Translations under genes and position numbers: made by a program
In this document: piece by piece, positions 12,524 through 47,073 of the stretch
Layout of the letters: every line of letters starts with the position of its first letter
Position numbering within the stretch: position 1 is the stretch's first letter
The notes under the pieces: model-generated
The model's database searches: none
What the model saw: the letters and a program-made list of their open reading frames with translations, nothing else
Told to the model about the DNA's origin: nothing
Source of the DNA: Chromera velia
Lineage: Eukaryota
Direction of reading: 5' to 3'
Length of the DNA stretch: 47,567 nt
Assembly: GCA_018398765.1 (NCBI GenBank)
Contig: JAHBMJ010000450.1
Span: 1 to 47,567, forward strand

Positions 12524-14624
12524 TCAGTGAAACCGGGTGTATCCCCCCTGTCGACTGCTGTGGAGTCCCCTATTTTCGTTCCCGTCCGCATTTCTCTGTC
12601 GTGGGGAGACAGGGCCGCCCGGGGACCCCCGGCCTCCCATGGCATACCTGGACTTCGAGGGAGCCTTCTGCTTCATCCTCTTCCGCTCCTTCAACCATGA
12701 GAGCGTCTGAATCAGTTCCGACTGGTCCCCGTGCATTGCTTCGTCTGCTCCCCTGTTCGAGAACGGGTTGTCGTCCACGGATGCCCACTTCTTGTACTGC
12801 TGGTAGACGTACTCAAGAGACTCCTTGGCCTCCAGAAGCTGCACACAATCGTGCATGGGTGTACAGAGGCAGGTGCTTTCAGACAGGCGGGAGCGGAAGA
12901 CTCAGTCCAAAGCGCGAGAGAGCAGTGGCATCGGCATCACCATGTGTGCTTGCTTTCTTGTTTGTACCACACACGTGCTTGTTTGTTCATTTGTGTGGGG
13001 CCACTTTCAACGCCTTTTTACCACCGACACATATGCCATCGTTTCCCCTGACTTTGTCCGCGTGTTGTGCGTATATCTGTGTGTTTTGTACGTGTGTGAG
13101 TCTGCGTCTGTGTGTGTCTGTGTGTTTTGCGATCCTGGCGAGCGCGAGTCGTTTAGCGAGAAACGAATACGTTTTCTTAGTGTTGTGTATATAGAATGCG
13201 TTCAAAAGGAAACGAAAATGGATCGTCAACAAGTCTGGGATCAATATAACAAGGATAAAGCAGAAGGCGGGCCCTGCACACCAAATAGGGTGAAGAGATC
13301 GGGACAGGGGTCGTTTGATGATGCAGGGTGGTTTTTGCAATGTGTCGATTCATTAACTCGATGATCTGCAGAATGACTCACGTCGTCATTCCCACAGCCC
13401 TCCGCGTAATAGTTGTGGAGGAAGGCTTTCTTCTTCATCAGCTGTTCAAACTGCATTTTCAGGACCTCGAGCGGCTGCAAACAGCACACGGTCATAGCAT
13501 CAAAAAGTGCTTCATTTTGCCAAAGGCATACACCAGATCATGCAAAGACACCATCACGCATCGTCTCAACAGCAACACACAGCACATCACGGTGTGACCG
13601 TATCAATGACATTTTGCACCAGGAAAAAATGTGGACTCACAGGCACACTCCGAAAATTCAGTAGATTGAACAACAGAAAAGGTAGTACGCATCTGAGCGG
13701 CTTCTTCATGCATGGATGCGTCTCTTTGCACCTAGTGGAGATTTCTTGCGGACCAACCTGTGTGATGGCAGTTGTGTTTGCAGCGTAGGTGAGCGATGCG
13801 TCGACCATGTATTTGTGATTTCCGCTATACCTAGGGGGAGGAGGGATGTCGCAGATCGAAGTAGTGCAGCACCCAGGGATCCAGTCAGGGAAGTGGTCGT
13901 CGAAGTAGGGATGGTGCTGGCTGCCGTAGATGATCTTGTCGATCTCAGAGGGGGAGACGGCCTTGCCACGAAAGCACATGAACAGTCCCAGATACCGAGC
14001 GGTACGCCAGTGCTTCTGCACAATGAGGAGGCATATCAAGGGCAGTCAAGAAGAGGGTGCACGGTCCATGGCCCATCCCTTACCTGTTTCTTCTCTGACT
14101 GTCAAAGAAGGAGGAAAATACGCAATAACTCTTGACGCTTGAAAGATGTGGAGTTGCCTGATCTTGCAAGCTGATTACTCATGGGTTTTCTAGAAGGATT
14201 TGTGGCCTCTTTGTCTATCTGTGGGGCGCATCGAAAAAAAATCGCGCTGTGTCTAAAATGGGAGACTACCGGCCTGCCTGAATGCAAGGCAGAGCAAGGA
14301 ATAAAAGACTGGCCGCTGACATGATCCGTCCAAAATGACGTGCTGCGCTTTCTACCTGAGAGGAGTGCAGTCTCTACGCCGTCAGGTAAAGCCATTTTCA
14401 GCTGATGAAAGGCCCGAGTTGCCACCTAGTCGAAAGAGAAATAGAACGTCCCTTTCCTTTGCACTTCCATGCGAGAAACACCAAATATCTGACCTTATTC
14501 AACCACTTTTCCGTAGGATTGCAGGTCAGCATGCAGTTCTGCTGAGTCCACGCTTCCTGCACATTCACTCATGTACGAAAACTGTGTCTGCGCTCTCCTC
14601 CAAGACACATAAGCACACATAAGC

Positions 14625-14677
<53 letters not shown>

Positions 14678-17009
14678 GAGAGAGAGGAAAATGGATGGTG
14701 GAAGGCCGGATGGAAGGGAGAAAGAGGGAGGATGTCCAAAATGCTTTATCGGTCTTTGCATTCATATTTCCTAGAGAAAATATAGGGCACACCCCCCCTC
14801 CAAGACAAATTTGAAAGGCGCTGACCTGCACAAGTGGCTGAATATCCACCTTTCCGTACTTCTGGCTGTCTGTCCTGAGGGGGGCCCCTCCGGTGACGAG
14901 GAACTTGAGGTTCTGGAAGGGGACCAGGTTGGTGTTCATCTTTCGGAAGTCTGCATCCAGAGCTCCTGGAAACCTGCAAGGAGAATTAACAAAGGGAATG
15001 TAAAAATGTCCTGACAACATGGGGAAAATACTTTTCTGTTCCTCTCCCACTGACACTTGACCCACCTTAGGTTTGCAGTGAGCCCGGACATCATCATGCC
15101 AATGACAGCGTCACAGTGGGAGTACTCAGGGATCTCAATCTTCTTCGCCTTCCTGACCATCTCTTGGAGTGCCAGGTTGTCGAACATAAAGCACTGCAGG
15201 CAATCAAGAACAACAGGGGTAGAAAAAGGACACGGTTGGCAACCTATCCGGACATCCAAAAGAAGTTGCAGATAAGACAGACAAAGGAGACAAGAGGACA
15301 AAATCAGCAATCGTTTTTTGATTCGACATCTCAGCGTGGCGTTCACGAAAACACGTCAGGTAACCGAAGACATGCATGTTGAAGGTCTTCTCGTGCCTAC
15401 CTGTTGCGCGTACTCCTGCATGAACCAGGCATTCAGGGTAGCGTTGTAGGGTTCGACGTTGAGGGAGGAAGAATTTGGGTGTGTCATGAGACTGAAGGTC
15501 TGAATGATGGGGCCCGTCAGAGTCATGTCTGTCGACTTCAGGTGTTCATCAAAAGCCTCCAGGATCAAACTCGAAAGCCCCGACCCTGCACCTCCCGCCA
15601 TCCCGTGAAGGATCTGTGTCGCCTGCCACGAATCCATTCGCTCCACCTCTCGACGTGCAAGATCGCATACGGCCTTGGCAAGCGGCGGGCCGACGGTGTG
15701 GAAGGCTTTCGCCCAGCAGTTGCCTGTGGACTTGTCGTTATGCACGACATTCATGGGAGCCAAAAGGCGGTAGATGTCTTGCTGCCTCAAGCCGTCGATG
15801 AACTTTGCGTCTGTGTCGGCGAGAATCGCCCGGGGAACGTACCTGCATAGCGCGGAAAAGGTGTGAGGAGAAGGGAAGGAACACAAAAAACGGGGAATGG
15901 CTGAGCAGAGAGGGGGGGATAGGAGAGTGAAGAGAGAAGGGGAGGGGCAGAGGCAGGGACGAAGCATGGAACCAAGAGGGCGTACGGCAGGAAGATATTA
16001 GCAGGGAGGAAGGCAACAGTGAAGCAAAAAGGGAGATGTGTTTGGTTTGGAAAACGAAATCTGCGGGAGAGAGAATGGGCACGCCGACTGACTTGCCCTC
16101 CGAAGACTCATTGAAGTACGTCTCGACACACTGGAGATACACGTTTGAAGAGTGGTGGGGCATCCCTTCCTGGTTCGGGATAAATCTGCCAATTTCAGCT
16201 TTGGCACCTGCCGCTTGTTGTTCACGATTGTACAGAATGTAATGCTCTTCCGCCACGTCCCTCCAGAACTCCATCCCAAAGTTGATTCCAGGGCGCCCCA
16301 ACTGCATGAACAAAACACAATTTAATTTAAGAAAATACGGTCAGGCATGATCTGCAAGCTCGTAGTCGCCTGTGGTCTGGTCGAAGAATCGGACGGACCT
16401 GTACGGTTAGAATTTCTCGGTTGTGGGAGGAATATGGAACCGAGTGAGTGCCAAGCACGGTCTTGTCCTTCAAATCCTCTCTTTGCGTCGGGTGAATTCT
16501 GCAGCTGTACGTGCTCTGTCCTTTATGGCTCTTGTCCCCCTCTGCTCTATCCAGGAACTTTTTGCGGGACACACGCTGTTCAGCGTCACCTGCAGCGTTC
16601 TTGACATCACCTGTCACGAGGTTTTGCTCCAAAACAACTTCTGCTGATGTGTGCCAGGTGTCGCCGCCCGTCATGGGGCTTCCATCCGGAATGGCCGGCT
16701 TGGGAGCATTCACCACTCCTGTGTTTGCCTGATCTGCCAGTATGTCGTAAGCGTCCATGTGCCGCTGGCCCCGACTCAGCAATTCTGCAACAACACACAA
16801 CGACAGTTGAGGGTTGGGGTATGCAACCGTTGTTTTCTTTGCTGACTACATATAACTAACTGCAAGCGTTCCAGATGCAGCGAAGGAAACTTACTCGAGT
16901 CGTCAATGGCAAACGCCTCTTCGCCTTGTTTGACTTCATTTCTCTTCGCATGAGCAGCTTCCACGTTCGAAAAGTGCTGGAACGCACGGTCCTCATGTGG
17001 GTCGTCCAT
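12524..17009 (-). CDS. Highly divergent beta-tubulin-like protein, ~720 aa; exons 17009-16895, 16784-16399, 16301-16093, 15842-15401, 15193-15066, 14973-14826, 14556-14494, (14098-14084), 14015-13758, 13474-13382, 12838-12524
   Basis: Tubulin motifs across frame-consistent exons: REILTVQLG, FWRDVAEEH, KYVPRAILAD, GNCWAKA, HGMAGGAGSG, VEPYNATL, FDNLAL, LRFPGALDADFRKMNTNLVPF (Lys at the alpha-E254 position, so beta-like), RYL..FRG, FPDWIP..CDIPP, NTTAI, KKAFLHNYYAEG. No stops or frameshifts. An acceptor just upstream of the ATG suggests a further 5' exon. Confidence 0.9.
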
Positions 17010-25360: not shown

Positions 25361-25795
25361 CTTCTAATACTATTTAATACTATTAATCGAGTTAGTTCAC
25401 TAAAAAGTACTCGAAAGTGAATTTGATAGCAGAAACCATGACATATGTGTCCATCTTTAAATATGAACTAGACTTTAATTCACTATGAAGAGCTCAAGAC
25501 TACACATCATTACTCATAATATAAAATCTTTCCATAATTTTCTTTACTAGTTCAAGCCCGCACAAGTATGATGGAGTACGATAGAGTACAGGTTTAGGCC
25601 GCTTAGTAAGCCGCTTTAATAATCAAACGATACTAAATGGTCCAAAGTAGTCCGGAGCCAACGCCTTCATGCAGCAGCGTCAGTATGATTCGGACTGTAT
25701 AACGTATTAAAACTGTTTGCTAGAATCGTTACCGATCGTTACTTTCCACGGCTTTTACTAGCTATCACTATTCAACAAAAAGACAATAAAACTAT

Positions 25796-26319
25796 TGCTA
25801 TGAGATAAGATCATGCATGAATCGAGCGTGGAATCTTAATCTTAGAAAGGGGCGAATGCTATGCGCTACTTAAGCACAGCTAGAAAGAAAATAGAAATTA
25901 AATGAATTGATTGTGATTTAAAGTAACACTGAGCAAAAGAGAATTGTGCGCATCACTCGCCTTCATGACCTAATGGTTAGCATATAACACTAACAAGCAA
26001 GAGGTTATAAGTTCAAGCCTCGCTACCTCCTTTTTAAGAATCAAAGAAAGAAGATGCAGGACGTTAACGTCTTGTATCATACAGATGTTGGCGTGTTACA
26101 CTTCGATCCAAATCATATGAAAAACTTCCGAAAGACTTTCTGGAAGACTACAATGAAATCAGATCGATCACCGAATCACAAGAAAGCTCCATGCTCCTGA
26201 CATTGATCGAGTCTGTCACTAGGGATCGATCTGAACCACTCCGGCAACATCAAGCCCTGAAGACCCTTGAACCTCTGCAAGCACTCACCAGCGCCAACCC
26301 CTCTAAGTAGACCTTAACA
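25796..26319 (+). repeat. 5' LTR (524 bp)
   Basis: Colinear and ~95% identical to 33306-33757 plus 35285-35356. Confidence 0.95.
25959..26035 (+). ncRNA. tRNA-derived Pol III unit inside the 5' LTR (not a functional tRNA)
   Basis: A box TGACCTAATGG starts at position 8, CT-AAC-AA loop at 32-38, B box GTTCAAGC at 53, TTTTT right after position 72. Acceptor and anticodon stems do not pair. Confidence 0.72.
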
Positions 26320-26714
26320 CGTGGTGATGCCTAGCTCGAGATCAACAAGATCAAAGAGCTGAGCGAACGGAGACCAACCTTCTCTGCTGAACAACAACTA
26401 TTCTACAAGCAATGCAGACCACCTTCTTCATCCAGAGAAGGTTCACCCAGAGGAAACCAGAACGCTATGATCCTCTACATGTATACTACAGAAGCCCACA
26501 CCTGCGAGCCATCAACTCAAACCTCAACTTGTACGCCCTTAACTTGGCTGTCCCTTTGGTGTCCTATACCTGTAAGGAGAAGAAGCAGGACCACATCGCA
26601 AAGCGCTACTAAAATTTCTGACAGAACCCCACTTTCTGTCCTCTGCCATAAATCGACATCAGACAGGACCATACCGTGAAGCGCTGCTAAAATTTCTGAC
26701 TGTACCACCTTTTC

Positions 26715-27160
26715 CTGCCCTTTTTACAAATCTCATGCATTCTACCTAACAGTGAATTTGACTTCTCTTCGTTTCTCTGTGAACGGCGAAGCCCTGCTCT
26801 TTTTGTGAATTTTACGCATTCTACCTGATAGTGAATTTGACTTCTCCTCGTTTCTCTGTGAACAGCGAAGCTCTGCCCTTTTTGCGAATTTCACGCATTC
26901 TACCTGACAGTGAATTTGACTTCTCCTCATTTCTCTATAAATGGTGAAGCCCTGCTCTTTTTGCGAATTTCACGCATTCTACCTGACAGTGAATTTAACT
27001 TCTCTTCGTTTCTCTGTGAACGGCGAAGCCCTGCCCTTTTTGCGAATTTTACGCATTCTACCTAACAGTGAATTTGACCTCTCTTCGTTTCTCTATGAAC
27101 GGCAAAGCCCTGCCCTTTTTATGAATTTCACGCATTCTATTTGACAGTAAATTTGACTTA
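26715..27160 (+). repeat. 79-bp tandem repeat, ~5.5 copies, in the retroelement leader
   Basis: GCATTCTA starts at 26737, 26816, 26895, 26974, 27053 and 27132. Confidence 0.95.
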
Positions 27161-28210
27161 TCTTTATCCTTCTGCGAAAGGCAAAACACATTACGAACTA
27201 ACATTACGAAGCGTTCGTGCGTTTTGTGACTTGGACTTTCCCGTTAAGCAAAAAGAAAATTCGACTACTTCCATCCCTGTGTGATTTACTTTTTTCGCTT
27301 GCCGTCTTTATATATACAAGCAGTCTACCTGCACATACAAGACAAATACAAGTAACTCTTTCTTCATTCGAATTTGGATTGCTTCTCTTTCTTTCCTTTT
27401 GCGAAGGAGATCTTTCTGCAAATCAGGCTATCTTTCCTCTCAGCAAGTTCAGAATTTCACTCTGCTGCACAAATCTTTCCTTCACAGCTAAACAAACCCT
27501 TTTGTTTTTCTTTGAATTCAGATTCTCTCTTCTCTTTTTGCTCTTCAACGGAACTCTACCTCTCTCACTTCATCAAGTTATTTTTTCTCTCTGTAAGTTT
27601 ATAATTTTCAACTTCCTTTACTTATATCAGCAGCGAACAGAAATCAGCAGCGAAACAGAAAACTCTATCTAACCGAAATACAAAAATAATCCCCTAAACG
27701 CATCTGACGCGAAAAAGAACGACTAACCAGGCAAACCCCGAAGAAATCACAACCAGAACGAGAAAGATCCTTTGAGCAATTTTGCCTGGAGAACTTCTAG
27801 AATTGTACACAAAAGAAAGGGAAGAATGGGCGAGACTCATCGTGAACGAAATTTTGTAGAGGTCCACAGAATTCATTGAGGACCAGCAAAATCTGAGAAT
27901 CTTCCTTTTAGATCAGTATTCATACACAGTCGTCGCTCATAATCGCCAGTCAGATGAAGTCATCAAAGCACTGAATCTTGACGTCACACGTTAGCTGAGA
28001 TTTATCAACAGTAACCGCCAACTTCTCCCTATATATATTCCTTCCCTCGCTCGCTACATTTGGGTAGACTGAAGGCTTTTCTGTCAAAAAAAAAAAAGGG
28101 AAAGAGAACCAAATATGACTCCAAAGCCTCAGGCCAAGAAAAAACTGACAGCCTGACAAAAAGCACTAGAAAAGAACAAGAAGAAAAACAACGCTAACAA
28201 ATTCCTTGAA

Positions 28211-29601
28211 ATGGACGAGTCTCTTCAGCATATGGAAAAATCTAAGCAAGTAATTAAGGAGCCATTGAAAAAGAAGGAAAAGGGCAAATCTTCTAATAAT
28301 AAAAATCGGAACAACAAAAAAAAGGAAACGGAAAAGGAGGTAGAGAGCCAAGACGAACAAATGGAAAAAAACGAAATACAAGAGAATGAGAAAGGGAAAG
28401 AAAGCAATAAGAAAAAAAAAAATAGAGAAGAGAGTGAAGGAGAATCAGATGAAGAAATGACAGATCAACAGACCAATAAAGCGCAGAAGAAGTCGTCAGC
28501 CAATTCCATGCAAGTACAGAAATGAGATTCGTCTGACAGTGTCCTGAAGGCATTAGCAAAAGAAGGAGTCACATTCAAACCAACAAAAGAAGGAGAATTT
28601 GAATTGATGTTTAACACAGACAAACTACATGTAAAGGAAACGACAGCAGACAGCTCAGCTTTGGTACCCTCACACCTTCCCTCTTTCATACAAAGAGCTG
28701 CTCTGCTACCGACTCCTCCACTGCTACCAACCCCAAACCACTTGTTCAACCCCCCAATTAAAGCAAACATCAATGCATATTCAGGAGAAAGAAAGGACAC
28801 ACGGAATTTTTGGAGAGCTTTCGATATGGACGCTACTGCCTTTCAATGGAATATCACCCAAATCCTGTTCTATTTCCGAAAATCACTGAAAGGAAATGCA
28901 CTCGACTGGTTTACAGACATATTCGACGAAAAAATGAGCAAAATTCAAACCATCACTGACCTGAAAAACACATTCTTCTCGAAGTTTGGACTCAAAAAAC
29001 CGCACGTAGAGAGAGTAGAGGCCAGCTCAGACAACTTGCAGCAAAGAGAAGAAGAAACAATCCAAGAGTATGCAGACAGGTACACTTTCCTTTGTCGACA
29101 AGCAAATTCGTCAATCGAGGATGAAAGACCGATGAAAAAATTTTGGAGAGGACTGTTCGATAAAATTGTAAAGTCGATTCTCACACAAAAGCAATACACC
29201 TCATTCGACGAATTAGTGGGGGCAGCAGAACTGATTTCACATAACTGTTACAGTGGAGCAACTGAGAGATCCAAAAAGTTTTTAGCAGTCGAAGAAACAA
29301 ATGGCGAAATGATAAAAGGAGACAGACTCACCGAGAGCCAGAAGGAAGAGCCCGCACCCTTTACAGAACGACGCATCTCCTTGTAGATCAACACGGTCCT
29401 GCAGCAGTGTTCGCACAAGCAACTTGTAAAAGATGCGGAGGCTTGACCCCTCACATAAGTGACCAGTGCCCTTTGCCACCAGACTGCGAATGCGCATATT
29501 GTGGCAACAAACGACATGAAAGACCAGCATGTAGAAGACTAAAAAAGGACTTGAAAGTAAATCGATTTACGCTTTTCAGTCTCAGAAAAAACAGACCTTA
29601 A
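28211..29601 (+). pseudogene. gag: Ty3/gypsy gag: K/E-rich N-terminus, capsid domain and two zinc knuckles
   Basis: YSGE...LKGNALDWF...LKNTFFSKF...LQQREEETIQEYADRY...FWRGL, then CKRCGGLTPHISDQC and CAYCGNKRHERPAC. In-frame TGA at 28523 and a frameshift near 29390. Confidence 0.88.
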
Positions 29602-29779
29602 CATGAAAAAAAAAATGTACAGAAGGAAGGCCGAAAAGAGCAAGGAACACTGAAGACCACGGAGAGAAACAGAAAAAGGGGAGAGAAGAAAGGGAGAGAA
29701 AAGGAAGAAAAACAATAAGAAAGACTAAACGAAAGCAGTCATACACATCCATTTGAACTGACAAAGAGTAGAACTCTTT

Positions 29780-29850
29780 GTCTCTTCGGTTACAGTATGG
29801 TCACACCTGCAATGATAGACAGCAGACGTGCGGTGAATCATGGTACACGA
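29780..29850 (+). pseudogene. Possible aspartic protease remnant
   Basis: PAMIDSRRAVNH follows the zinc knuckles. DSR is one G>A change from the catalytic DSG. Confidence 0.4.
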
Positions 29851-30139
29851 ACACGTCTAGTAGCAGCTGACAACAGGAAACCCGTCCTTGAAGGCGATTC
29901 CTTCACCTCTCTGAATCAAAGGCGAGGAGGGAAACAAACTTGAGAACGAAAGACTCGTTTCTTTTTTTTGAACGAAAGACTCGTTTCTTTTTTTGTTTGA
30001 TTTACAGAGAATCAGGAAAAGTGAATTTTATATCTCTTTTTCGATGAGACGCGACTTAAAGTTTTTGTTTGACTTGCATACGCTTGAAATGTACACATTC
30101 TTCAAGACTAGACAGACTTGTGAAAAGAAAAAAAAAATC

Positions 30140-30300
30140 TGTTCACAAAGTGAGAGAAGTGGTCAAAAAAAAAAAAGAGAGAGAGAGAGAGAGACAGAAG
30201 GTGCAATACTCCCTCACTTATGAAAGATCCCTAAACGAATTGTGGTTGATCAAAGTTGAAGACTACGACTGCCCTACATTCATTCGATAATTTGAGGCAG
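30140..30300 (+). pseudogene. Chromodomain remnant
   Basis: KVREVVKKK...QKVQYSLTYERSLNELWLIKVEDYDCPTFIR*FE resembles chromodomain VEKIL..R...KVEYLVKW...TWEPEENLDCPELI.EFE. Confidence 0.55.
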
Positions 30301-33300
30301 ATCAAAGTATGAAAAAGGGAGCCGCTATTCTTAAAGAGCAAGAAAGGAAACTCAGCAGTCAAAGAAAGAAAACAGATTAAAAAGAGAAAATCACGGCGCA
30401 GGAAGGGGAAGACGAAACAAAAGCAACACACTGTGACACAAAAGAGAGACTAGCAGAGCCGAGTTCAACGCTGGCACTGCATCCAAAACATACAAGGAAC
30501 AGAATGGGGAACACCCACCTCAGAAGGAGCTGGCAGCCCCAATCATAGGAGGCCAGTTCATGTTGACCAAGGCGGTGTGCTTCCAGTACTCTCACTTCCG
30601 GGGTTGCCGTGGGGAAGGCAGACGTAAACAGGAACTGAAGAGCTTGGAACTGAAAACCTGTAGACATGGAGAGATGAAATCGTCATCGACTACGTTCTCA
30701 ACGACAATCACATCGACAGTGGGAGATCAAGAGTCAGAGTGAGCACCGTCAACAACCAGAAATGGAAAACGTGCAGGCACTGGAGGTGCACAAAAGTCAT
30801 GCATAAGTCAAAAACCACCCAAACAGAGAGAAAAGATAGACAAGATAAACACTTACAAACGAATGATCAAATGAATAAAGAATGGACGGGTACATACATG
30901 TACATACCTGATTGATTCGGATCAGAATAACCAACTAAACTAAATAAAGGGCATGAAAGATGCGAGGCAAGATAAGTGTGTTGACAAAAAGACCAACTGA
31001 ATGACCCCCTAAGAACTGAAAAGGGATGAATAGAAACAAAACACCCATATACACATACTCACACATCTTTATCCTCATTCATCCACTCACCCGCACCTAC
31101 ATACACACGAACCCTCCCTGGAGCAACACCGCATACCGATCGGTGACTGATGAATAAAAGCAGATAACATAGACCTGCCGGGCGCACATAACCCACAGCC
31201 TCTGACCCTGACGCCTTCGTGGCGAGAAGACGCATGCGCATGCGCATATAAGGTCCCCCAGGGGGTAAGTTGGCCACTTACACCACCAGGACCTCCCAGG
31301 GAGAGGTAAGGTCACCCACTTAATCGCTCCTACTGGGCCTCTGTTCCCTAGTACATCATCATCGACCTATACACACACACATACACATACACACATACCC
31401 CACACACACAAACACTAAACCGAGCTTCGCGCCCAAGCTTATTCAAAAAAAAAAAACCGCCCAAGAAGTAAAACCTAGTGTTGGGCCTCCGACCCCAACA
31501 GTAATCTGAAGATGAGCCCGATGAGAAGAGGTGACTACACTCATTTTCAACTAAAAGTTAGAGAGGAAAAAGCATGAAAGGAAGCTAAATACCATACTAA
31601 AGAAGAGAAGCAAGTCAACAAACAGCAAAAGGTTCCTTACGAAATCACCCGCTCACATATGCACACTGAAATAGATATCTTTCAGAGCAGATGGGATGGA
31701 GGGGGGAGCCAGACAAACGAAATAAGACGACTGGCAGGCAAATGAAATCATAGGAGAAAATCAATTCAGCGAAATTGAACGAAATAGTGAATGGTGCAGA
31801 GACAAGTAAATCAAAGCCAGACAGCAAGAACACGGGAAGACAGTCTGTCAAGAAAGCACAAAGCCGACAAGCTCTTCCAAACAAAATAGAGGCAGAGAAG
31901 TGCAAAACGCGAACTCGCAGCAAACTTGACATCGAACAGCTGAGTCACTACCTTGCATAAATGGACTGACTCCTTTCCTCAAGCCGCTCTCTGTCGTGTG
32001 CCAAAGATCCCCCTACAGGAGGAAAGACGAGATAAAGAAGAAGGTCGTTGACGAGAGCCACAAGGAGGCAACATCGAGACAAAAAGGAGCACGAAGAACG
32101 CCACCGCCCCGCGCGCAAGGGCATGAGTAGACGACCAAGACCGAAAAGATGGAGATAAACGAGATGAACACCACCTAAGAGATCAAAGCGATGATTTAGA
32201 AGTATGCAGCAGTGATGAAAAGTCGCCGGGAGGAAGAGGAGGACAAGGAAGTGGACAAAACCGATATCGAAGCGGACGAGGCTCATGGAGACGGAAAGAG
32301 ACATCGGGTTCCAGAGGGGCAAGGACAACAAGGACAGGGGCAACATGGACGTAGGCATCGTGATCCTTGCCGTGGATGTAGGCATAGTGATCTTTGCATC
32401 AGAACACGAATGCGGAGAAGGACAAGACGGAGGTGAGGTGGATGTGGCGATGTAGAAGAGGTTGGAGATGGAGGAGGATCGCCTTGCATCTGAACATAAA
32501 CACGGAGAAGGACGAGATGGAGGCAAGGTGGATGTGGCGATGTAGAAGAGGTTGGAGAACAAGGACATGGAGAGCATCTGCAAGCACAGGGACAAGAGAG
32601 ACTGACATGAACAACATGAAGCACAAAATCAATATGAAGCTCTTGAAGGACGAGAACAAAGAGGCCACAGAGCACTCGCTCTGACCGGGAAGATGAGGGC
32701 CTCGAGAGACAGTGGCCAGCCAGAGAGTCGCTACGAAAGTGAGGTCGAGGTTCCAAGCAGGGACCAGACGAAACGATTGCAGAATAGGAACAAAGTCGTA
32801 AAGGAGACGGAAGAACAACACCGCTTTGAACTAAGGGGGACTTATGGAGAAGAGAGAACTGACGCTCCAAGGGAGAGTCGCCAGGGATGCGTCAAGAGTG
32901 ATAAAGATGTTGCGGTTGAATCGGAGCATCGAAGGAGGGATCGATCGTGCCATGTACGTGCTTCACGGAAATTTTTTCATCGAAATGTTCTGATCGAAAA
33001 TGAGAAACACGCCTCGGCCAAAAAATACGTGTTGCATCGTATGTGTTGCATTGCATGACATGTTGCACTCATGCACAGCTATATGGGCCCATTTGCATGA
33101 AAGACCCCGGCGCTTTCCGCAGGGGCCATCCGATTTTGCGCGCGCGAACTGAAGGACGTGCTGGCATGCCGGGCCTTTTTGACAACCCCGCGGCGCCCGC
33201 GCGCCGCGCACGCGAGATCTCGAGGGGCCGTCAGTACGCCAGAAAACCATATGCAAAGGCACGGATAGGCACGGAAAGGCACAAAAAAATATAGAAAGGG

Positions 33301-33468
33301 GCGAATGCTATGAGATAAGATCATGCATGAATCGAGCATAGAATCTCGATCTTAGAAAGGGGCGAATGCTATACGCTACTTAAGCACAGCTAGAAAAAAA
33401 ATAGAAATTAAATGAATTGATTGTGGTTTAAAGTAACACTGAGCAAAAGAGAATCGTGCGCATCACTC

Positions 33469-33545
33469 ACCTTCATGACCTAATGGTTAGCATATAACAC
33501 TAATAAGCAAGAGGTCATAAGTTCAAGCCTCGCTACCTCCTTTTT
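33469..33545 (+). ncRNA. tRNA-derived Pol III unit inside the 3' LTR
   Basis: Second copy with the same A box, B box and T5. The loop reads CTAATAA. Confidence 0.7.
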
Positions 33546-33757
33546 AAGAATCAAAGAAAGAAGATGCAGGACGTTAACGTCTTGTATCATATAGATATTG
33601 ACGTGTCACACTTCGATCGAAATCATATGAAAGACTTCCGAAAGACTTTCTGGAAGACTACAATGAAATCAAATCGATCACCGAATCACAAGAAAGCCCC
33701 ATGCTCCTGACATTGATCGAGTCTGTCACTAAGGATCGACCTGAACCACTCTGGCGA

Positions 33758-34616
33758 TATACAGTACGGTTAGGAGTTACTACCGGGCCCCTTGGGGAGG
33801 CGGCGAGTTACCGTCACTTTGGTAACCATGGGGCGGTGACTTAGAGGCCCAAGGGCCCCTACCACTACCATGGCAGTTCGGGCCAAGACCCCGGCAAAGG
33901 ATACAAAAAAAGCGCGACGCATGGATTGAAAAAAAATCCGTCTCCTTCAAATCCGTTTCAACTTTCGAAAATCAATTTTTAAACGAAGGTCAACCTTACT
34001 TGTGGTCAAAATTATGGAATCGTTTCTCTTCTGTCCCCTGTCAGAGCAGACGGACAATTGACGAAGGCTGTAGTTCGGCAGTGATCAGTGCTTTCTCACT
34101 GTAGGAGTGGTGGTGGTGGAGCTGCAGGAGGCTCCCGAGGAGGGAGGGGGGGCGCTGGAGCTGCAGGGGTCTCCCAAGGAGGGAGGGGGGGTGGTGGAGC
34201 TACAGGGGTCTCCCGAGGAGGGAGAGGAGGTAGTGGGGCTGCAGGGGTCTCCCGAGGAGGGAGGGGGGGCGTTTGAGCTGCAGGGGCGCTTGAGGCGAAG
34301 TGGGTTGTTCTCTTTCTCTCTCTCTCTCTCACACACACACACATATACACACACATGGTGACACACACACATACACACATACACACACACACACACACAC
34401 ATACACACATAAACACACGAAAAGAGACTCTCTCAGCTTCGTTAGTCTCCATCTCTATTCCTCTTGCTCAAGCTGACTGGAAGGGAGCCTTCCGTCTACA
34501 CGTCCAGGCCTCATTCTCCCTTGCTCACATCTTGATTTTGTCTTTGTTTGTGTATGTCTGTGAGGGCCGGGTTGACGACCATCCTCGCTCTCTGTCACTC
34601 ATACACACACACGCAT

Positions 34617-34657
<41 letters not shown>

Positions 34658-35276
34658 TACACACGAAGAGAGACAATCTTTTTTCTTTTGTTCCTCTCTT
34701 CGTTCTTCTTTTTTTTGTTCTGTGTTTCCCTCCCGGCTGGAAGAGGCAAACCATGCGTTCATTTAGGGTTGACCGGCGGAAGTCTGGGTGGGGAGGTAGC
34801 GATACACCTCCCCCCTAGTCACCCCCCTAGGTCGTATTTTCGTTGGAGTCCGCTGGATCAATCAATCAGTACGTCACTGGCAGGCCTCACTAAGTGAGCT
34901 CGCATTCATGATATGTTTCATCGCACAGTTGAATAATTGGCAAAGTATTACAGCATCATAATTATAACATAATATCATCATTTATAGTGATAGAGTAATA
35001 TCTCTGATATTATAATTATTATCTCAGATCTAAGAGTTTAGCAAGATTGATAGAACAATGGTGTTTACTCTGTAGCCTTTGTTGATTGTAGATTTGATGG
35101 TAAAACCAGATAAAACAGGTTTAAAGATCACTAGTATTAGGAAAAATATGTAATACTACTACTACCATGGTCATGGGACTAAAAACTACTACCGTAACCG
35201 TGAAATTGGTAACCCGGGCAGCCTAGCGGCCATCCGGTAACCATCCTACTATCGTTACTCCTAACCGTACTGTGTA
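33758..35276. mobile_element. Non-autonomous hAT-type DNA transposon (1519 bp) nested in the 3' LTR, carrying gene-like cargo
   Basis: TIR TA(T/C)ACAGTACGGTTAGGAGT. 8-bp TSD TCTGGCGA/TCCGGCGA, which is single-copy in the 5' LTR. Confidence 0.93.
34110..34290. repeat. 39-bp GC-rich tandem repeat (~4.5 copies) with 13-aa periodic coding potential
   Basis: GGAGCTGCAGGGGTCTCCCGAGGAGGGAGGGGGGG units. Minus strand reads PPLPPRETPAAP repeats. Confidence 0.85.
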
Positions 35277-37100
35277 TCCGGCGACATCAAGCCCTGAAGA
35301 CCCTTGAACCTCTACAAGCACTCACCAGCACCAACCCCTCTAAGTAGACCTTAACACTATTATAAACTATTATAAAAGACAAAAATTTATGGTTTCATAT
35401 ATTGAAATTAAAAAAATGAATTATACCCTAATCTAAACTATAGTGTCAACGTATATATTAAACTCTTTGTGGTTGATATCAACTGAGGGTTGCGTTTTTC
35501 TTTTAATTTTTTTTTTAATTTTTCTACGTTTTAGCATGTAAGTTCAGTGTCTATAATCAAACTTTATTCACAATTCGACCTTTCCAATCATCTCCATATC
35601 CGTCCACAAAGAAATCAAAATAAATAAACAGTTTCTCATGGCCCCAGACTAAACCCATAGAGACATATGGATTCATGCACAGCTATGCATCAATGAGATG
35701 TGAAACATGCACAGTCTCTCCCGCACTTGAACGTTCTTATGCGATGATAGGAATGGCATCCAGGCGATCCAATGAGATCCGTTGCTGCCTGTACATTAAA
35801 GACAAAAAAGTGAGAGACTTGCATGCGTGTATGTTTTTCCGTTTCGTGATTCTTTTTCTACCCCTCGGCGTTCCCATCTGCATGATGTCTTTCTTTCTGG
35901 GTTTTCTTCTTCCATCGATCGAAAGAAAAAGAAAACATCTATTTCAATGGCAGGCATCCAGACTCCCAGAAGGTGCTCCGGGTCTGTCGTAGTTTTCTGT
36001 CTGAGGAGAGAGAGAGGGGGGGGGGCGGGGGAGGGAGAGATTCCAGAGATCAAAATTCCGCAACAACATTCACCCTGTCACCTGAGTGACAGAAGCTTGC
36101 ACCCCTTTCCGCTCGCCGAACCTTTCATTGGAATGCTCCCCTCCCCCCCCCCCAAAGAATAGGAGTTGATGTTGTCGCTGACACACAGCAACTTGAGGGA
36201 AGTACGGTTCCACTACATGGACCTGTGTCTCGATGCATCTCCCCCACATGGTCAGCTTCACAGATCTGAACCCTGAAGGGGGACAGTCATTTCTTGTGCT
36301 TTCGTCGGTTTCTTTGTGAACAAAAAGTCGAATAATTGTTTGTTGGGTGTCCGCATCATTTAAATTGAGTCATGATTGAGAGTAGTGCAAAAGCAAACAA
36401 AACGAGCGTTCTCCGAGTGCTCCATCATGTTCTCACTCACGTGAGTCGAGTCGAAAATCAATGATCGAAAAATGATGATCACCAAATCAAACAATCACTC
36501 AGTGAATCCACCATTCAATTCTGTGTGTATTCCCCCAGCATGCAGCCATCTGATTTTTCATCGCGCGTGCACACTTCACTGCAAAGTTTTGATCCCCGTT
36601 TCGTTTCCCTTCCCTTTCCCGTTCCCTTTCCCTCTCTCCCGGTCTCTCATGCCCTCACGTGCACAGGCTTTTTCGTTTTTCAAAAAGACAAAAGGCAGAC
36701 ACCAGACAGTCAACTTGCCTGGCAATGCGGGATTGTTTGTTGAACATCTCGCAGCTCCGGCTCATTTCTCTCGCCGAGGCGTTGTCAATCGATTGGTCAT
36801 GCAAATCAATACTGTCAGTTTTCTCTTCTCTGTCATAAAGCGGAATGAGACGAAGCGAGGCAAGGCAAGACGAGGACCAGCCAAGAACGAAAGGACCGAC
36901 CAGACTGACTTACAGTTATTCTGGTGCAGGACTAAAACACAAACAGTCACAGCATGGGTAGCTGGACGAAGGAGGAATCGAAATGCCCTTCGTTCCTCGA
37001 AAAACTTTTTATCTATTCCCTCTATTCCCACTTCTTACAAAGTTGACTGCCGCCCCACTCTCCTAGCTGCCTCCCCACCCCCCACACCCCACTTTTGATT

Positions 37101-42695: not shown

Positions 42696-45600
42696 CTCTT
42701 CGCGAGGGAAGAAGGAGATGGAAGAAGTCAGCAAGATAGGAAGACGCTATAAAGCTAAGGGGCCAAACCTAAAATGCGGCACAGAAATTGAAAACGGAAC
42801 GGACCTTACATGCTTGCCTCCCTTGGACACCCTGACTCTGCCACTGTAAATGAAAAATAAGTCGTCTGCAACTTCGCCCTCCACCACGACGTTCTCCCCT
42901 TTCTGCAAAAAGAAAGAACAAAGGAAAACAAGCAATCAAGTAAGTACAAAGAAAGACAGCCCGTCAGGGATAAAGAAGAAAGACTCTCGAAGAAGAGTAA
43001 ACAGAACAGCGGGAAAGGACTGCATCCAACTGAAGCCAATCGGTCTCTCTCTGCCCTCCATTCACCAAATAGGAAGGAGGACACGCACCCGCCAGCTCAC
43101 CTCGTACTTTGCGTGAGCCACTTTCTCGACCATTTGAGTTCGCACCTGCAAAGATGATTCAAACGTTTTGTTTGTTTTTCTAAAAGGTTTCGGGGACTTT
43201 TATTTTGTGTGTGTCTTTTCAAAAGTCAGAAAATGCCGTTCCCTCTACAACGATGACCTGCAAGGATCAAACGAAAAGAAAAGGAAAGGAAACTTGATCT
43301 AGATGAGAACGATGGGAGAAAAGACGGGGGAATGGTCCTGAAAAGAAACGAATGAAAACAGATGACATTTTGAGCACATGATTGTTTCTTTATCTCTTCT
43401 TTTTCACGGGCGATCGATACGTAGAATACTAGAGATCCATCCTTCGAGTGAAGATCCATTCTTCACCTCATGTATGTGCGTACCTTTTTGATGATGGATG
43501 CGGACTTTTTGGTTCTCAAAAACAGAGGGAGACGGCTGAAGACCCTGTTCAACTGCACCGCTCTGACGACCTCGAGAAGTTTTTTCGGTTTCGGGTCGGG
43601 AAGGTCTTCTGTCATCACCCTGCAGGGAGGCAGGCAGGCAGGCAGGTCGTCCAGTAAGATCGAGTCATTTAAAGATTGCGTCAGAAAGAACAAAAGAGAG
43701 AGAGAGCAAAAGACACGGGGTAACTGACCAGGTTATTCAACGAAAGGCAGAGGAAGAAAGCGGCAAGCAGGAATGAACGGCTACGGGAAATTGGCGACCA
43801 AAGCAGAAAAGAGAGAAGCTCTAAGAACCCGGTGCAGTCCACTCAGCACACGGGAAAGATGAAATCAGTGGCCTCCTCTTGGCTGAAAACAAACACCCAA
43901 AAACAAAACGGAGGAGTCGAACAAACAGACGGACACACAGAGATGGCCGAATAAATTCAGGGGCGGACTCAATCAGTCGAGAGCTCTTCAAGACCGCCAC
44001 TTGCGCGCTCGTTGTGACGCGACACCCGTATGTCATGGGCTGCACCATGCAACATGCATGGGTTGGCATTGAGACACGTAGGTATAGAAGGTATAGAAGG
44101 AGAATTGACACTTGTACAGAGGGAGAAAGAGCAGGAATGACTGCCCCAACTTGCACAGCAGACCAAAGAAAGTGGAAGAGGGCAGTGATCGACTCTCGAA
44201 CAACAGGTAAGAGCGGGGGGGAAAATAAGAGAGCGTCCCAGAAGCCCAAATAGGGAAAATCATCTTGCACCTGGTGAAGTGAATTGCACTACGCAGCCGT
44301 CGAAACATGAGTGCCATAATACGCGAATCGACGAACCAGATCGCGAAGAAAAAACTCGGCCCCGTAAAGTTCCCCCGGCTCCATTTTCCTCTCACACCCC
44401 GTGTGTCCCCCCCTCCCTGAAGGTGACGGAAAACCACTTCCCGCTTTTCCTTTCACTTCCAATTCTTCCCCCTTCTCCTTCTTCTCCTCATCCTCCGGGG
44501 AAGAGGACGCGAGAGACGAGATGTCCGAAGTGTCCAATGCCCCCGCCGTCAATTGTTTCTGGAGTGCAATCAAGTTACCCATGCTCTTGCTGCGAGGACC
44601 GATACCCCCGCTGGGCCCCCCAGCCCCCGACTCCCCTTGCATGCGGAAGGAGGCTGCGAGCGGGTCCCCGTAGAGAAGCCGCGGAGTCTCCAGCGCCATT
44701 GTGGTCTGCAGGCAGTTTCGTTTTCAGGAAGGAAGAGGGGCAGGAATCACATGAAAAGACAGCAGCGAGAGAAGTCAAAGGAGGAGTGCTAACAGTCTAT
44801 TGACCGACAGGCTGTATGGCTTCTTTTTTTCTGCTGACGGACAAGCAGGCAGGCAGACACACAGGCAGCCAGCGAGGACACTAGAGTCAGTGAGGCAAAA
44901 AAAAGAGACACCAAGAAGGGCATGTAGGGACAGAGCCATCAATCAATCCAGGACTCACCCCTGGGTTGGGATTGTCCTCGTTGCTCTGTGCTCTGGAGAG
45001 TGGCAGGAGGTCCATGGAGAAACGGGTAGACCGTCGGAGCTGTTCGAAGCCCCCCGCAGGCATAGTCTTCATCAGTCCCTTCTGTTTCATCTCGTCCCTC
45101 CTTTGCCGCCCCCCCCTGGCTGATGAGGCCACCACAGACCCCACAGACTGCCTCCGTGCCCCTCCCCCGTCTCCATGAGGACCGGATGCTCCTGCAGCCT
45201 CTGACTGCTGAAGCGCCTCTAATACAAACGCTGGATGCATCGCTGGAAGGGTGGGTGCGTGAGGGGCATGCGCACCGACAGCCTCTGGTTGGTCTACCGC
45301 AGGGAGAGACACCCTCCGTCCCCTGTTGACTGCAGGAGGAGGGCCCTCCACTCCCACCAGCTCCCCCTCGCCCTCCATCAACAGTGCCATCGTTGGAGGG
45401 GCCCCGTTTTTGAAAATGTACTCTCCCGCACTCAGACTGCAGATCTCCCAGGCCTCTGCGATTGCACCCTGTTTGTGAGAGTCCATGAAATGCATCCAGT
45501 CAATGCCTGCACTTTCAACGACACTCTTCAACATTGCCCGACGGAACAGTTGAAACACTTTCGACTTTCCTTCGAGAACTTCTTTCTTGGAGATGACCAG

Positions 45601-47073
45601 ACATGTGGCCTTGTTTACAGCAAGAGCTGTAGAGGTCTGCAAGGTTTTGCTGGCAGGACTGCAGTTGCCCACAAACGCGCCTTCTGCCAGCACGGACTCC
45701 TTGGCACCGAGGACGGCGATTTTACCTGCACGCACGAACACGCGGGGGGGAAAGGGGTCCAATAGATTGAATGATCATAATGGTGGTCGTCCTTTGTGCC
45801 ATCATCATCATGATCATGATCATCATCGACCGTATGACCTTGCATCCGAACATTTAGCCTATTCGACATTTAGCCTATTCGAGCTTGACAGAGTCCTTTC
45901 CTCTTCTCTTACGCCTTTGCTTCCGCGGCTTTCTTCTCTCTAGCCCTTCTGATTCCAAGTCACCTTCCGAGCAAACTTTCGGTATGCGCACTTGCAGAAT
46001 TCCTGGTGATGTCACTTCTCGTGGACTATGCAAGACAGCAAAAGAAGGACAACAGGGCCTCCCTTCAGACTGTCAGGCTCCCTGTGCTCTTGGTCGACAA
46101 GTGAAATTCTTTCTTCTGCAACAACTTCCTTCCAAGACCGCCGCACGACGTGACCGACCGCTTGCCAGCAGCAACACCTCTGTTGCCACGTCACCCAAAA
46201 CGACGACTTCCTGTCTGGCCTTGAAACTCCGCCTCTCCATTTGCTGCATGAACCAAGGAAGGAAACACAAGAAGAACAAGAGATGCTTTTGCAGCCGGAG
46301 CTTTGTCAGGCGTTCGTTTGTGTGAATTCTGCAGAGGATAGAGCTTTATGAGAGAGAAACGCTTTTTGGTCCTGCATTGTCACGAAGTGGCCATGCCTCC
46401 TTACATGTTCGCTTTTCTTCCTTCGTTACAGAAGAATGTCTCTTGTCTCCTTGGTTGAAATGCTATGGATATGCAACGGATTAAGAGGGGGCTAAGAGGG
46501 CTGTCTGTCGCTTACCGAGAGCAACTGGGAGATTTGCTTCTCACTGACGGACTTCCCGATGACAGACCGAATCAACTCTGCATCCATTTAGTCAATCATT
46601 CATCCACTGAGTGATTCGAACTTTATTCTTTTTATTCTCGTTTCATTTTGACTCACAGACGGATGGATCCACCACATCGAAAAAGTATGACCAAAAATAG
46701 TTGACGTCATGAACACGTCTCGTCCTCTTTGGGCAAGATCTGCTTTGTGTCTTCTTCCCGTGGCAGCGTATCTTGAGTGTATGTTGTCCCTGGAAGAGTT
46801 CACCGACGACGTTCTTTTCCACAGCTTTCTTTTCTTAACAGCTTTTCCTGCTGAATACCGCTTGCTTCAACGTTTCTTCTGTTGAAATGCAGACCAAAGC
46901 CAAAATCAGTTCTTGAAAAGGGACCACCAGATGGACAAAACGAACAAAAACAAAAGGAATTCAATTAAATGAGCCAAATGATCAACCAGCCAACCGACCG
47001 ACCAACCAGTATCAGTCAATCTTCGATGGCTCGCGTTCTCTTTGTCTGCTCGTCTCAGGGCGTTTCGAAGAGC
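37101..47073 (-). CDS. PKG: cGMP-dependent protein kinase (apicomplexan-type PKG-like), ~22 exons seen, 5' end beyond the window
   Basis: At least three cNMP-binding domains, the last with DYFGERPLL...RTAT and ERTELQD. Kinase motifs LGEGSYGAV, LALK, VSELLQGGDLF, YRDLKPEN, DFGTCK, TYTLVGTPEYLAPE and GVDWWALG, then AGC tail PPFVP and a final 21-nt exon DWTADF* (37121-37101). Confidence 0.9.

What the first reader, a model, noticed from the sequence alone, without database searches (positions are those of the whole stretch)
25959..26035. LTRs carry a tRNA-derived RNA polymerase III unit with its own terminator
Seen: both LTRs contain a 72-nt segment with canonical tRNA numbering (T8 and A box, C32-T33-AAC loop, G53-TTC B box) followed immediately by TTTTT. 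The T-stem 5' arm ATAAG becomes GCGAG, a perfect partner for CTCGC, if three transitions are reverted. Known: Cassandra elements carry 5S RNA in their LTRs, and I recall tRNA-bearing non-autonomous LTR elements from oomycetes. I know of none in alveolates, or in a large gag-coding element. Inference: the element may use a Pol III promoter for transcription, a small RNA, or a TFIIIC insulator against silencing.
Basis: partly seen in the sequence, partly recalled or inferred. Interest (0 to 1): 0.85.

Follow-up and report, generated by a model that had tools for sequence, protein, structure and literature searches.

The report
tRNA-gene relic in algal retrotransposon LTRs
Both end-repeats of a decayed, gag-bearing jumping gene in the alga Chromera velia contain the remains of a tRNA gene that has lost its cloverleaf but kept the RNA polymerase III promoter boxes and stop signal, which likely serve as a polymerase III landing site helping the element's own expression, a design so far described only in much smaller elements.

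Summary
Both LTRs of an ~8-kb Gypsy-derived, gag-only element in Chromera velia (tubulin exon 100% identical) carry a 72-nt tRNA-derived unit followed by T5. It matches 20 of 20 invariant tRNA positions (1 of 43,000 LTR shuffles did). A sequence-only tRNA model ranks both copies first (27 bits, E~1e-7; next 4 bits). The cloverleaf is gone: 7-8 of 21 pairs, about chance; no structure-model, Rfam or ARAGORN hit. Sister LTRs carry the unit too, so it is not a one-copy SINE. The three-transition T-stem argument is weak. Pol III is unlikely to make the replicating RNA: T5 follows at once and 34 more T4+ runs lie inside. Likeliest reading (inferred, 0.45): a captured tRNA gene kept as a TFIIIC/Pol III site that yields an ~80-nt RNA and aids the Pol II LTR in cis. 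No expression or binding data. Closest known: Helenus/Cassandra TRIMs; new are the host, size and gag. The scan noted similar LTR modules before, in a fungal Copia LTR and a diatom-like TRIM. New variant of a known kind.

The parts
25792..25795 (.). Left target-site duplication CTAT (4 bp)
   Evidence: the same 4 letters follow the 3' LTR at 35357-35360
25796..26319 (+). 5' LTR, 524 bp, TG...CA
   Evidence: heterogeneous loose ends at 26319/26320 in many contigs mark the same boundary in sister copies
25959..26030 (+). tRNA-derived unit (tRNA positions 1-72; LTR positions 164-235); cloverleaf lost
   Evidence: sequence signal; no structure signal
25966..25976 (+). A box (positions 8-19), one departure: A at position 10
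   Evidence: sequence; the Helenus motif TRGCY...YGG is from PMC10886601; G10 nearly invariant
26010..26020 (+). B box (positions 52-62); most sister contigs read G at 26010, giving GGTTC
26031..26035 (+). T5, predicted Pol III terminator, directly after position 72; the only T4+ run on the + strand of the LTR; no CCA
26322..26339 (+). Primer-binding site starting TGG, 2 nt after the LTR; not complementary to the unit (longest match 4 nt)
26714..27164 (+). 79-nt tandem array (5.7 copies) in the 5' leader
28526..29386 (+). Longest stop-free piece of the broken gag (Retrotrans_gag PF03732, E 1.8e-10; Ty3_capsid weak)
   Evidence: gag relatives sit in RT-RNaseH-integrase polyproteins and other C. 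velia elements
29425..29532 (+). Two zinc-knuckle-like Cys/His motifs in another frame, read by eye; not called by Pfam
   Evidence: translation; no hit
33293..33305 (+). Polypurine tract before the 3' LTR
33306..33757 (+). 3' LTR, left part
33469..33545 (+). Second copy of the tRNA-derived unit plus T5 (3 differences, none in the boxes)
33758..35276 (.). 1.5-kb insertion with ~20-nt terminal inverted repeats and an 8-bp target duplication (hAT-like by duplication length; label recalled)
35277..35356 (+). 3' LTR, right part (first 8 nt are the duplicated target), ends CA

Best explanation
The LTR of this gag-only, Gypsy-derived element family contains a tRNA-derived unit that has lost its cloverleaf but kept the A box, B box and a T5 run; it was likely captured as a tRNA gene and likely works as a TFIIIC/RNA polymerase III landing site that would make a short ~80-nt dead-end RNA and help keep the LTR open, while polymerase II likely makes the replicating RNA. 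Shown: tRNA ancestry of the sequence, loss of pairing, intact B box, near-intact A box, T5, and presence in both LTRs and in sister copies. Inferred: capture from a genomic tRNA gene (terminator right after position 72, no CCA, no SINE body or tail), fixation in both LTRs by reverse transcription, selection on the boxes, Pol II synthesis of the full RNA, and trans-mobilisation by a Gypsy partner. Untested: TFIIIC or Pol III binding, the short RNA, and any barrier effect.
For: Invariants are 20 of 20, while stems are at chance (8 and 7 of 21 pairs against 7.2 expected; 261 of 285 real tRNAs have 19 or more). Nine of the 21 pairs are purine-purine or pyrimidine-pyrimidine and need transversions or replaced arms, yet no invariant carries one. 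My arithmetic gives about 0.01-0.02 if neutral, before ascertainment bias. The sequence-only model scores 27 bits (E~1e-7), while the same alignment with structure gives no hit, although it scores full-length tRNAs in 10 held-out loci at up to 79 bits. Kojima reports the same pattern, boxes kept and tRNA function lost, for Helenus. Sister contigs differ from both window LTRs at 25985, 25988 and 26010, so they come from other copies that also carry the unit. The change at 26010 gives the canonical GGTTC and the one at 25985 gives a C27-G43 pair. Summed contig depth over the unit is about 67-100 times the unique flank in X1 and X2 (rough only, the tool warns it is no copy number). Pol III read-through is unlikely: T5 at once, then 34 T4+ runs (block-shuffle mean 18.7) and 18 T5+ runs (mean 5.8) before the 3' unit. 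Copies decay by transitions (24 of 25 LTR-LTR differences), as expected under methylation-type silencing (inferred). Precedent for tDNA barriers needing TFIIIC and Pol III: PMC2040200 (abstract).
Against: There is no functional evidence of any kind. Box conservation among copies is not significant: 0 of 20 box sites against 50 of 524 known variable LTR sites, Fisher p=0.13, from a partial variant list (40 rows shown, 68 not). Only 5 of the 20 invariants (G18, G19, G53, C56, C61) are vulnerable to C>T/G>A decay, and the unit was found because it kept them. The A box lacks G10 in both LTRs. A second HMM (nhmmer) ranked both copies first but weakly (6.0 and 4.4 bits, E 0.46 and 1.4). Single contigs at about flank depth lack or replace the unit (three joints). 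Depth over the LTR's 3' 200 nt is several times that over the unit, which may mean abundant related LTRs lack it. The position of the Pol II start relative to the unit is unknown.
Confidence: 0.45

Rival explanations
1. Neutral passenger: a tRNA gene or pseudogene was captured into the LTR once and now rides along without function.
For: Non-invariant positions still resemble tRNA. Only 5 invariants are sensitive to the dominant transition decay. The A box is imperfect, box conservation among copies gives p=0.13, and some copies have lost the unit.
Against: The stems are at chance level and need at least 9 transversions or replaced arms, while all 20 invariants, the exact spacing and the T5 persist. 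The majority sister letter at position 52 is the canonical one.
Confidence: 0.25
2. Trans-acting small RNA: the ~80-nt Pol III transcript is the functional product (an RNAi decoy, small-RNA precursor or an RNA that pairs with the element's own transcript), as with the Pol III miRNA cassettes in foamy-virus U3.
For: The A box - B box - terminator unit is self-contained. Precedent: PMC3993851 (passages). The predicted 3' end of the RNA (26023-26034) is complementary to 12 nt of the element's sense strand at 28332-28343, extending to 16 of 18 nt by eye. Block shuffles gave 70-94 of 3,000 for any 12-mer of the unit and 18-28 of 3,000 for a 3'-end 12-mer (found post hoc).
Against: There is no significant fold (z -1.0 and -1.5; 29 and 14 of 200 shuffles fold as well) and no hairpin of miRNA type. 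The 12-nt match lies in a low-complexity A/G-rich gag stretch far from the PBS. The PBS begins with TGG as for a host tRNA primer and matches the unit over only 4 nt.
Confidence: 0.15
3. Helenus/Cassandra mode: the unit is the promoter for the replicating RNA of a short TRIM that shares this LTR (start in the 5' unit, end at the 3' unit), and the long gag element got the LTR from it or is its parent.
For: The LTR anatomy and the 4-bp target duplication are as in Gypsy-dependent animal Helenus. Cassandra is said to start in the 5' LTR's 5S part and end in the 3' LTR's (citing its ref. 25, which I did not read).
Against: It needs read-through of T5. For this long copy it also needs passage through 34 T4+ runs. 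No TRIM derivative was seen, but the assay for it covered only the LTR and 100 nt beyond.
Confidence: 0.12
4. A SINE or tRNA pseudogene inserted into this copy only, or a chance match.
For: One contig skips 25890-26039 with a 5-nt repeat (AAGAA) at the ends. Rfam and ARAGORN see nothing.
Against: The unit is in both LTRs and in many sister contigs with their own letters. The skip starts 69 nt before tRNA position 1 and is at about single-copy depth. No SINE body or tail lies between head and T5. The window holds no other copy. Chance is excluded.
Confidence: 0.03

Closest known systems
Helenus (TRIMp3; Kojima 2024, PMC10886601; parts 1-4 of 6 read, supplements not read)
   Same: Non-autonomous LTR element with a tRNA-derived sequence in both LTRs, A/B boxes kept (YGG, GGTTC), tRNA function lost, PBS and PPT present, unit not complementary to the PBS, 4-bp target duplication as in Gypsy-dependent animal Helenus.
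   Different: Helenus are 311-1263 bp and non-coding, with LTRs up to 323 bp, from fungi, animals and one plant. This element is ~8 kb (without the insert) with 524-bp LTRs and a gag remnant, in an alveolate, with T5 directly after the unit. Kojima argues that Pol III processivity keeps such elements short and that autonomous partners would not share the LTR. He also notes that 'not a few' Repbase LTRs have tRNA-like parts and analysed only short ones, so long cases may exist undescribed.
Cassandra (plant TRIM with 5S-derived LTR unit; PMC7215508 passages; PMC10886601 introduction)
   Same: Pol III promoter and terminator inside each LTR.
   Different: 5S (type 1 promoter) rather than tRNA (type 2). 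Short and non-coding, with Pol III transcription reported. Here Pol III is unlikely to span the element.
TR-GAG / LARD non-autonomous LTR elements (definitions from PMC13570524 passages)
   Same: Longer than 4 kb, gag retained, no RT/RNase H/integrase found.
   Different: No tRNA-derived LTR unit is mentioned for them in the passages read; described from plants.
Foamy-virus U3 Pol III miRNA cassettes (PMC3993851 passages)
   Same: Self-terminating A/B-box Pol III unit inside the LTR of a Pol II-transcribed, gag-coding retroelement.
   Different: Those form hairpins processed to miRNAs and are not described as tRNA relics in the passages read. This unit has tRNA numbering and no significant fold.
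tDNA chromatin barriers (PMC2040200 abstract)
   Same: Proposed mode of action: TFIIIC plus Pol III on a tRNA-type promoter blocking the spread of silencing.
   Different: Those are intact host tRNA genes at centromeres. Nothing here has been tested.

Membership tests
Helenus (TRIMp3) | tRNA-derived sequence in both LTRs | tested here: met
Helenus (TRIMp3) | A box TRGCY...YGG and B box GGTTC conserved | tested here: inconclusive
   B box GGTTC in most sister contigs. A box has YGG but A for G at position 10. Conservation among copies p=0.13 on a partial list.
Helenus (TRIMp3) | PBS, PPT, 4-5-bp target duplication | tested here: met
Helenus (TRIMp3) | TRIM: short (up to ~1.3 kb) and non-coding | tested here: not met
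   ~8 kb with a gag remnant
Helenus (TRIMp3) | Element RNA made from the Pol III promoter (proposed by Kojima, shown only for Cassandra) | not testable with these tools
   sequence argues against it for this long form: T5 plus 34 T4+ runs
Functional tRNA gene | Invariant nucleotides at class-I spacing | tested here: met
   20 of 20
Functional tRNA gene | Cloverleaf pairing / covariance-model score | tested here: not met
   8 and 7 of 21 pairs. No hit in ARAGORN (also absent from the relaxed lists at -ps95 to -ps80, longer lists cut). No hit in Rfam at E<=10 on 131 nt or in my structured model.
tRNA-derived SINE insertion | Head followed by body and A/repeat tail, flanked by a target duplication, absent from sister LTRs | tested here: not met
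   T5 follows the head at once; unit present in both LTRs and in sister contigs. Whether a free SINE with this head exists elsewhere in the genome could not be tested.
TR-GAG / LARD | LTR element >4 kb with gag but no pol domains | tested here: met
   six-frame Pfam scan of 27600-33301 with stops as X: only Retrotrans_gag. Heavily decayed pol could be missed.
TR-GAG / LARD | gag-only structure shared by the whole family (not a one-copy deletion) | not tested
Gypsy/Ty3 lineage | Ty3-type gag; pol order RT-RNaseH-integrase | tested here: inconclusive
   gag is Retrotrans_gag/Ty3_capsid and its relatives sit in Gypsy-order polyproteins, but this copy has no pol to order

The most novel reading that the evidence does not exclude
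A multi-kilobase, gag-coding Gypsy-derived family in an alveolate keeps a working, self-terminating tRNA-type Pol III unit in its LTR under selection, and uses TFIIIC/Pol III occupancy or the ~80-nt RNA (whose 3' end can pair with the gag region) to resist silencing or regulate its own Pol II transcript. This would be the retrotransposon counterpart of foamy-virus LTR Pol III cassettes and a possible parent state of Helenus-type TRIMs.
Probability: 0.3. Interest if true: 0.75.

Novelty: new variant of a known kind. Interest (0 to 1): 0.5.

Why it matters
Small-RNA-derived LTRs (Cassandra, Helenus, Ajax) are explained as promoters for short elements that Pol III can copy whole. Here the same kind of module sits in an element far too long and T-rich for that, so, if it is under selection, it must do something else. 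That makes a second role (chromatin barrier or short RNA) directly testable and suggests a route by which TRIMp3 elements could arise from long gag-bearing parents. It also extends tRNA-bearing LTRs to alveolates: my searches found no such report, though one search listed only 30 of 101 papers and supplements were not read. In practice, such relics are invisible to ARAGORN and Rfam and need sequence-only models. If the unit is neutral, the finding is a modest annotation note.

Tried and rejected
Functional tRNA: rejected. Isotype assignment: not possible. The nearest of 266 virus-contig tRNAs matched 16 of 33 non-invariant core positions, within the permutation null. The best decay-tolerant match was an Arg(TCT) tRNA (L131, 27 of 33; null maximum 26 in 3,000), which tests tRNA-likeness rather than isotype, and no host tRNA set was available. 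Self-priming: unit versus PBS 4 nt; a 7-nt PBS complement just upstream of the unit is chance-level (my estimate about 0.4). A TRIM-type joint from the PBS back to the LTR start (table 5c) was rejected because its letters resemble the ordinary internal sequence after the PBS. Stable RNA fold: not significant. Avoidance of T runs in the internal region: the opposite was found. Sister elements in JGI metagenomes: none by gag (98 pattern stretches, 0 confirmed) or by an exact LTR motif (0). Expression: no RNA holder listed. The run guessed as RNA (X5) has no laid cover over the unit, which is no evidence either way; one X5 contig has a loose end that resembles the T5 region. My recollection that the Chromera genome paper reports RIP was not borne out (0 hits for 'RIP' in PMC4501334; searches empty), so the cause of the transition bias is inference only. 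The tRNA set came from pattern scans that include the variable-loop motif; I controlled for this by dropping 121 pattern hits and 19 low-scoring tRNAs out of 285. Model A2 used 77 of the 285, a few of them pattern hits. Look-ups of earlier notes by sequence and by place returned nothing.

Full report
Host and element. A tubulin-family exon in the window is 100% identical over 146 aa to a protein labelled Chromera velia, a free-living photosynthetic alveolate. The finding lies in an LTR element: 5' LTR 25796-26319 (524 bp, TG...CA), a TGG-starting primer-binding site 2 nt later, a polypurine tract at 33293-33305, and a 3' LTR in two pieces (33306-33757 and 35277-35356), all flanked by the 4-bp duplication CTAT. 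The 3' LTR is split by a 1.5-kb insertion with terminal inverted repeats and an 8-bp target duplication. The interior holds a broken gag (PF03732, E 1.8e-10). A six-frame Pfam scan with stops read as X found nothing else. Relatives of the gag are other C. velia retrotransposon proteins at 35-40% identity and Gypsy-order polyproteins. The LTRs differ at 25 sites, 24 of them transitions. This copy is a decayed, gag-only (TR-GAG/LARD-like) Gypsy derivative of about 8 kb. Whether the whole family is gag-only is untested.

Is the unit real? Numbering from G25959, both LTRs match all 20 textbook invariant or semi-invariant tRNA positions (list recalled) at class-I spacing. The best score elsewhere in the window is 18. 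A score of 20 was reached by 0 of 150 whole-window dinucleotide shuffles, 1 of 3,000 LTR shuffles and 0 of 40,000 more (analytic estimate 3e-6 per LTR). As a positive control, 226 of 285 real class-I tRNAs from virus contigs score 20. The signal does not rest on the boxes alone. With a matrix from 145 tRNAs that did not match my search patterns, the 47 non-invariant positions score 12.6 bits (0 of 50,000 background draws, 0 of 20,000 permutations), most strongly at positions 38-52 (p about 0.001). A sequence-only model from 77 tRNAs ranks the two copies first in the window at 27.7 and 27.3 bits (E about 1e-7), the next hit at 4 bits. A differently weighted HMM also ranked them first but weakly (6.0 and 4.4 bits). 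T5 follows position 72 directly and is the only T4+ run on the LTR's + strand.

It is not a tRNA. Only 8 and 7 of 21 cloverleaf pairs form, against 7.2 expected by chance and 19 or more in 261 of 285 real tRNAs. The same alignment with structure gives no hit at the unit, though it scores full-length tRNAs in held-out loci at up to 79 bits. ARAGORN and Rfam find nothing, and folding is not better than shuffles. All five T-stem pairs are purine-pyrimidine, but two are fixed by the B box and the other three fit by chance 1 time in 8. The D, anticodon and acceptor stems contain nine pairs that no transition can repair. The anticodon differs between the LTRs (AAC, AAT) and no isotype can be assigned.

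Is it a family trait? Contigs of coded organism A were laid on the 5' LTR (4 of the 8 listed runs). X1 and X2 also cover the unique flank, so they are probably not independent of the window's source. Over the unit, most depth carries letters found in neither window LTR at 25985 (12 contigs in X1), 25988 and 26010, so these are other copies that hold the unit. The majority letters give C27-G43, C48 and G52 (canonical GGTTC); position 30 changes without gaining a pair. Summed depth over the unit is 67-100 times the flank in X1 and X2 (the tool warns this is no copy number). Against this: three joints at about flank depth skip or replace the unit, and depth over the last 200 nt of the LTR is several times higher than over the unit, so related LTRs without it may be common. 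Only 40 variant rows were shown and 68 were not, so minor alleles in the T stem and A box are unknown. On that partial list plus the LTR-LTR differences, 0 of 20 box sites vary against 50 of 524 overall, p=0.13: inconclusive.

How it most likely works. The terminator at position 73 with no CCA and no SINE body suggests capture of a tRNA gene together with its terminator (inferred). Keeping every invariant while the stems reached chance level suggests selection on the promoter, the pattern Kojima describes for Helenus. The caveats are that only five invariants are exposed to C>T/G>A decay and that the unit was found because it kept them. Pol III is unlikely to make the replicating RNA: T5 comes at once and 34 T4+ runs (18 T5+) lie before the 3' unit, more than in block shuffles (18.7 and 5.8). 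So Pol II likely makes the long RNA, and the unit, if active, gives an ~80-nt product. I rank a cis role first (0.45): TFIIIC/Pol III occupancy keeping the LTR open in a genome where copies decay by transitions. The precedent is tDNA barriers (PMC2040200, abstract only). A neutral relic (0.25), a trans-acting short RNA (0.15) and a Helenus-type promoter for unseen short derivatives (0.12) follow. For the trans-acting option, the predicted RNA's last 12 nt are complementary to 28332-28343 in the gag region (block-shuffle rates 0.6-0.9% for a 3'-end match, 2-3% for any match). This is a post hoc lead only. The unit does not match the PBS.

Comparison. Helenus (PMC10886601; parts 1-4 of 6 and term look-ups; supplements not read) are TRIMs of 311-1263 bp with tRNA-derived LTRs from fungi, animals and Selaginella. 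The main text has no hit for alveolates or oomycetes. It argues that Pol III limits such elements to small size, and notes that 'not a few' Repbase LTRs hold tRNA-like parts, of which only short elements were analysed. Cassandra LTRs already carry Pol III promoters and terminators (PMC7215508, passages). TR-GAG and LARD definitions are from PMC13570524 (passages). Foamy-virus LTRs hold self-terminating Pol III miRNA units (PMC3993851, passages). PMC4501334 (passages) gives only general TE content for Chromera. The element works like a TRIMp3 LTR in anatomy but fails the size and non-coding criteria, so it is not filed as Helenus. Searches found no report from Chromera (one search listed 30 of 101 papers, none with the word Chromera). 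The scan's own notes record a tRNA-like module in a protein-coding fungal Copia LTR and in a diatom-like TRIM with terminator (unchecked), so the design seems to recur.

Verdict. A real, family-borne tRNA-gene relic in the LTR of a long gag-bearing element in a new host group; function untested. New variant of a known kind, interest 0.5.

Noticed in passing
window 25844-25862 and 33354-33372 versus 33293-33311: Each LTR contains, about 50 nt from its start, an exact 19-nt copy of the polypurine tract plus the LTR's first bases. The LTR looks like an older LTR extended by ~61 nt at its 5' end, with a possible second plus-strand priming site.
   Followed up: no
window 33758-35276: Non-autonomous DNA-transposon-like insertion (about 20-nt inverted ends, 8-bp target duplication) inside the 3' LTR, carrying a 39-nt tandem array and CA repeats.
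   Followed up: partly
window 28332-28349 versus 26017-26034: The gag-region sense strand is complementary to the 3' end of the predicted Pol III RNA over 12 nt exactly, 16 of 18 by eye. Shuffle rates are 0.6-3% depending on the test. Post hoc.
   Followed up: partly
window 25796-26319 versus 3' LTR: 24 of 25 LTR-LTR differences are transitions in varied contexts, including a CG/TA double change at 25837-25838; 26097-26098 shows the same against sister contigs. This suggests strong deamination of repeats in this host. No paper on the mechanism was found.
   Followed up: partly
P0001 versus window 28526-29383: The closest gag (75-77% identity) is filed under a Prorocentrum lima transcriptome, far closer than other Chromera gags (35-40%). 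This may be a chromerid contaminant in that culture or a horizontal transfer.
   Followed up: no
window 26125-26320: Summed contig depth over the LTR's last 200 nt is several times that over its 5' half, hinting at related LTR subfamilies that share only the 3' part.
   Followed up: no
window 25972-26045: One contig in each of X1 and X2 replaces 72 nt of the unit with 125 other letters: possibly a variant unit or an insertion.
   Followed up: no
window 26586-27164 and 32346-32558: 79-nt tandem array (5.7 copies, with a decayed upstream extension) in the leader, and 27-nt and 90-nt repeats within stop-free stretches near the 3' end that have no Pfam hit.
   Followed up: no
window about 14500-16350, minus strand: Divergent tubulin-family gene labelled beta-tubulin, 650 aa in the database, longer than usual tubulins.
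   Followed up: no
window 44890-45774, minus strand: Weak cyclic-nucleotide-binding domain hit (E 3.1e-5, below the curated cut-off).
   Followed up: no
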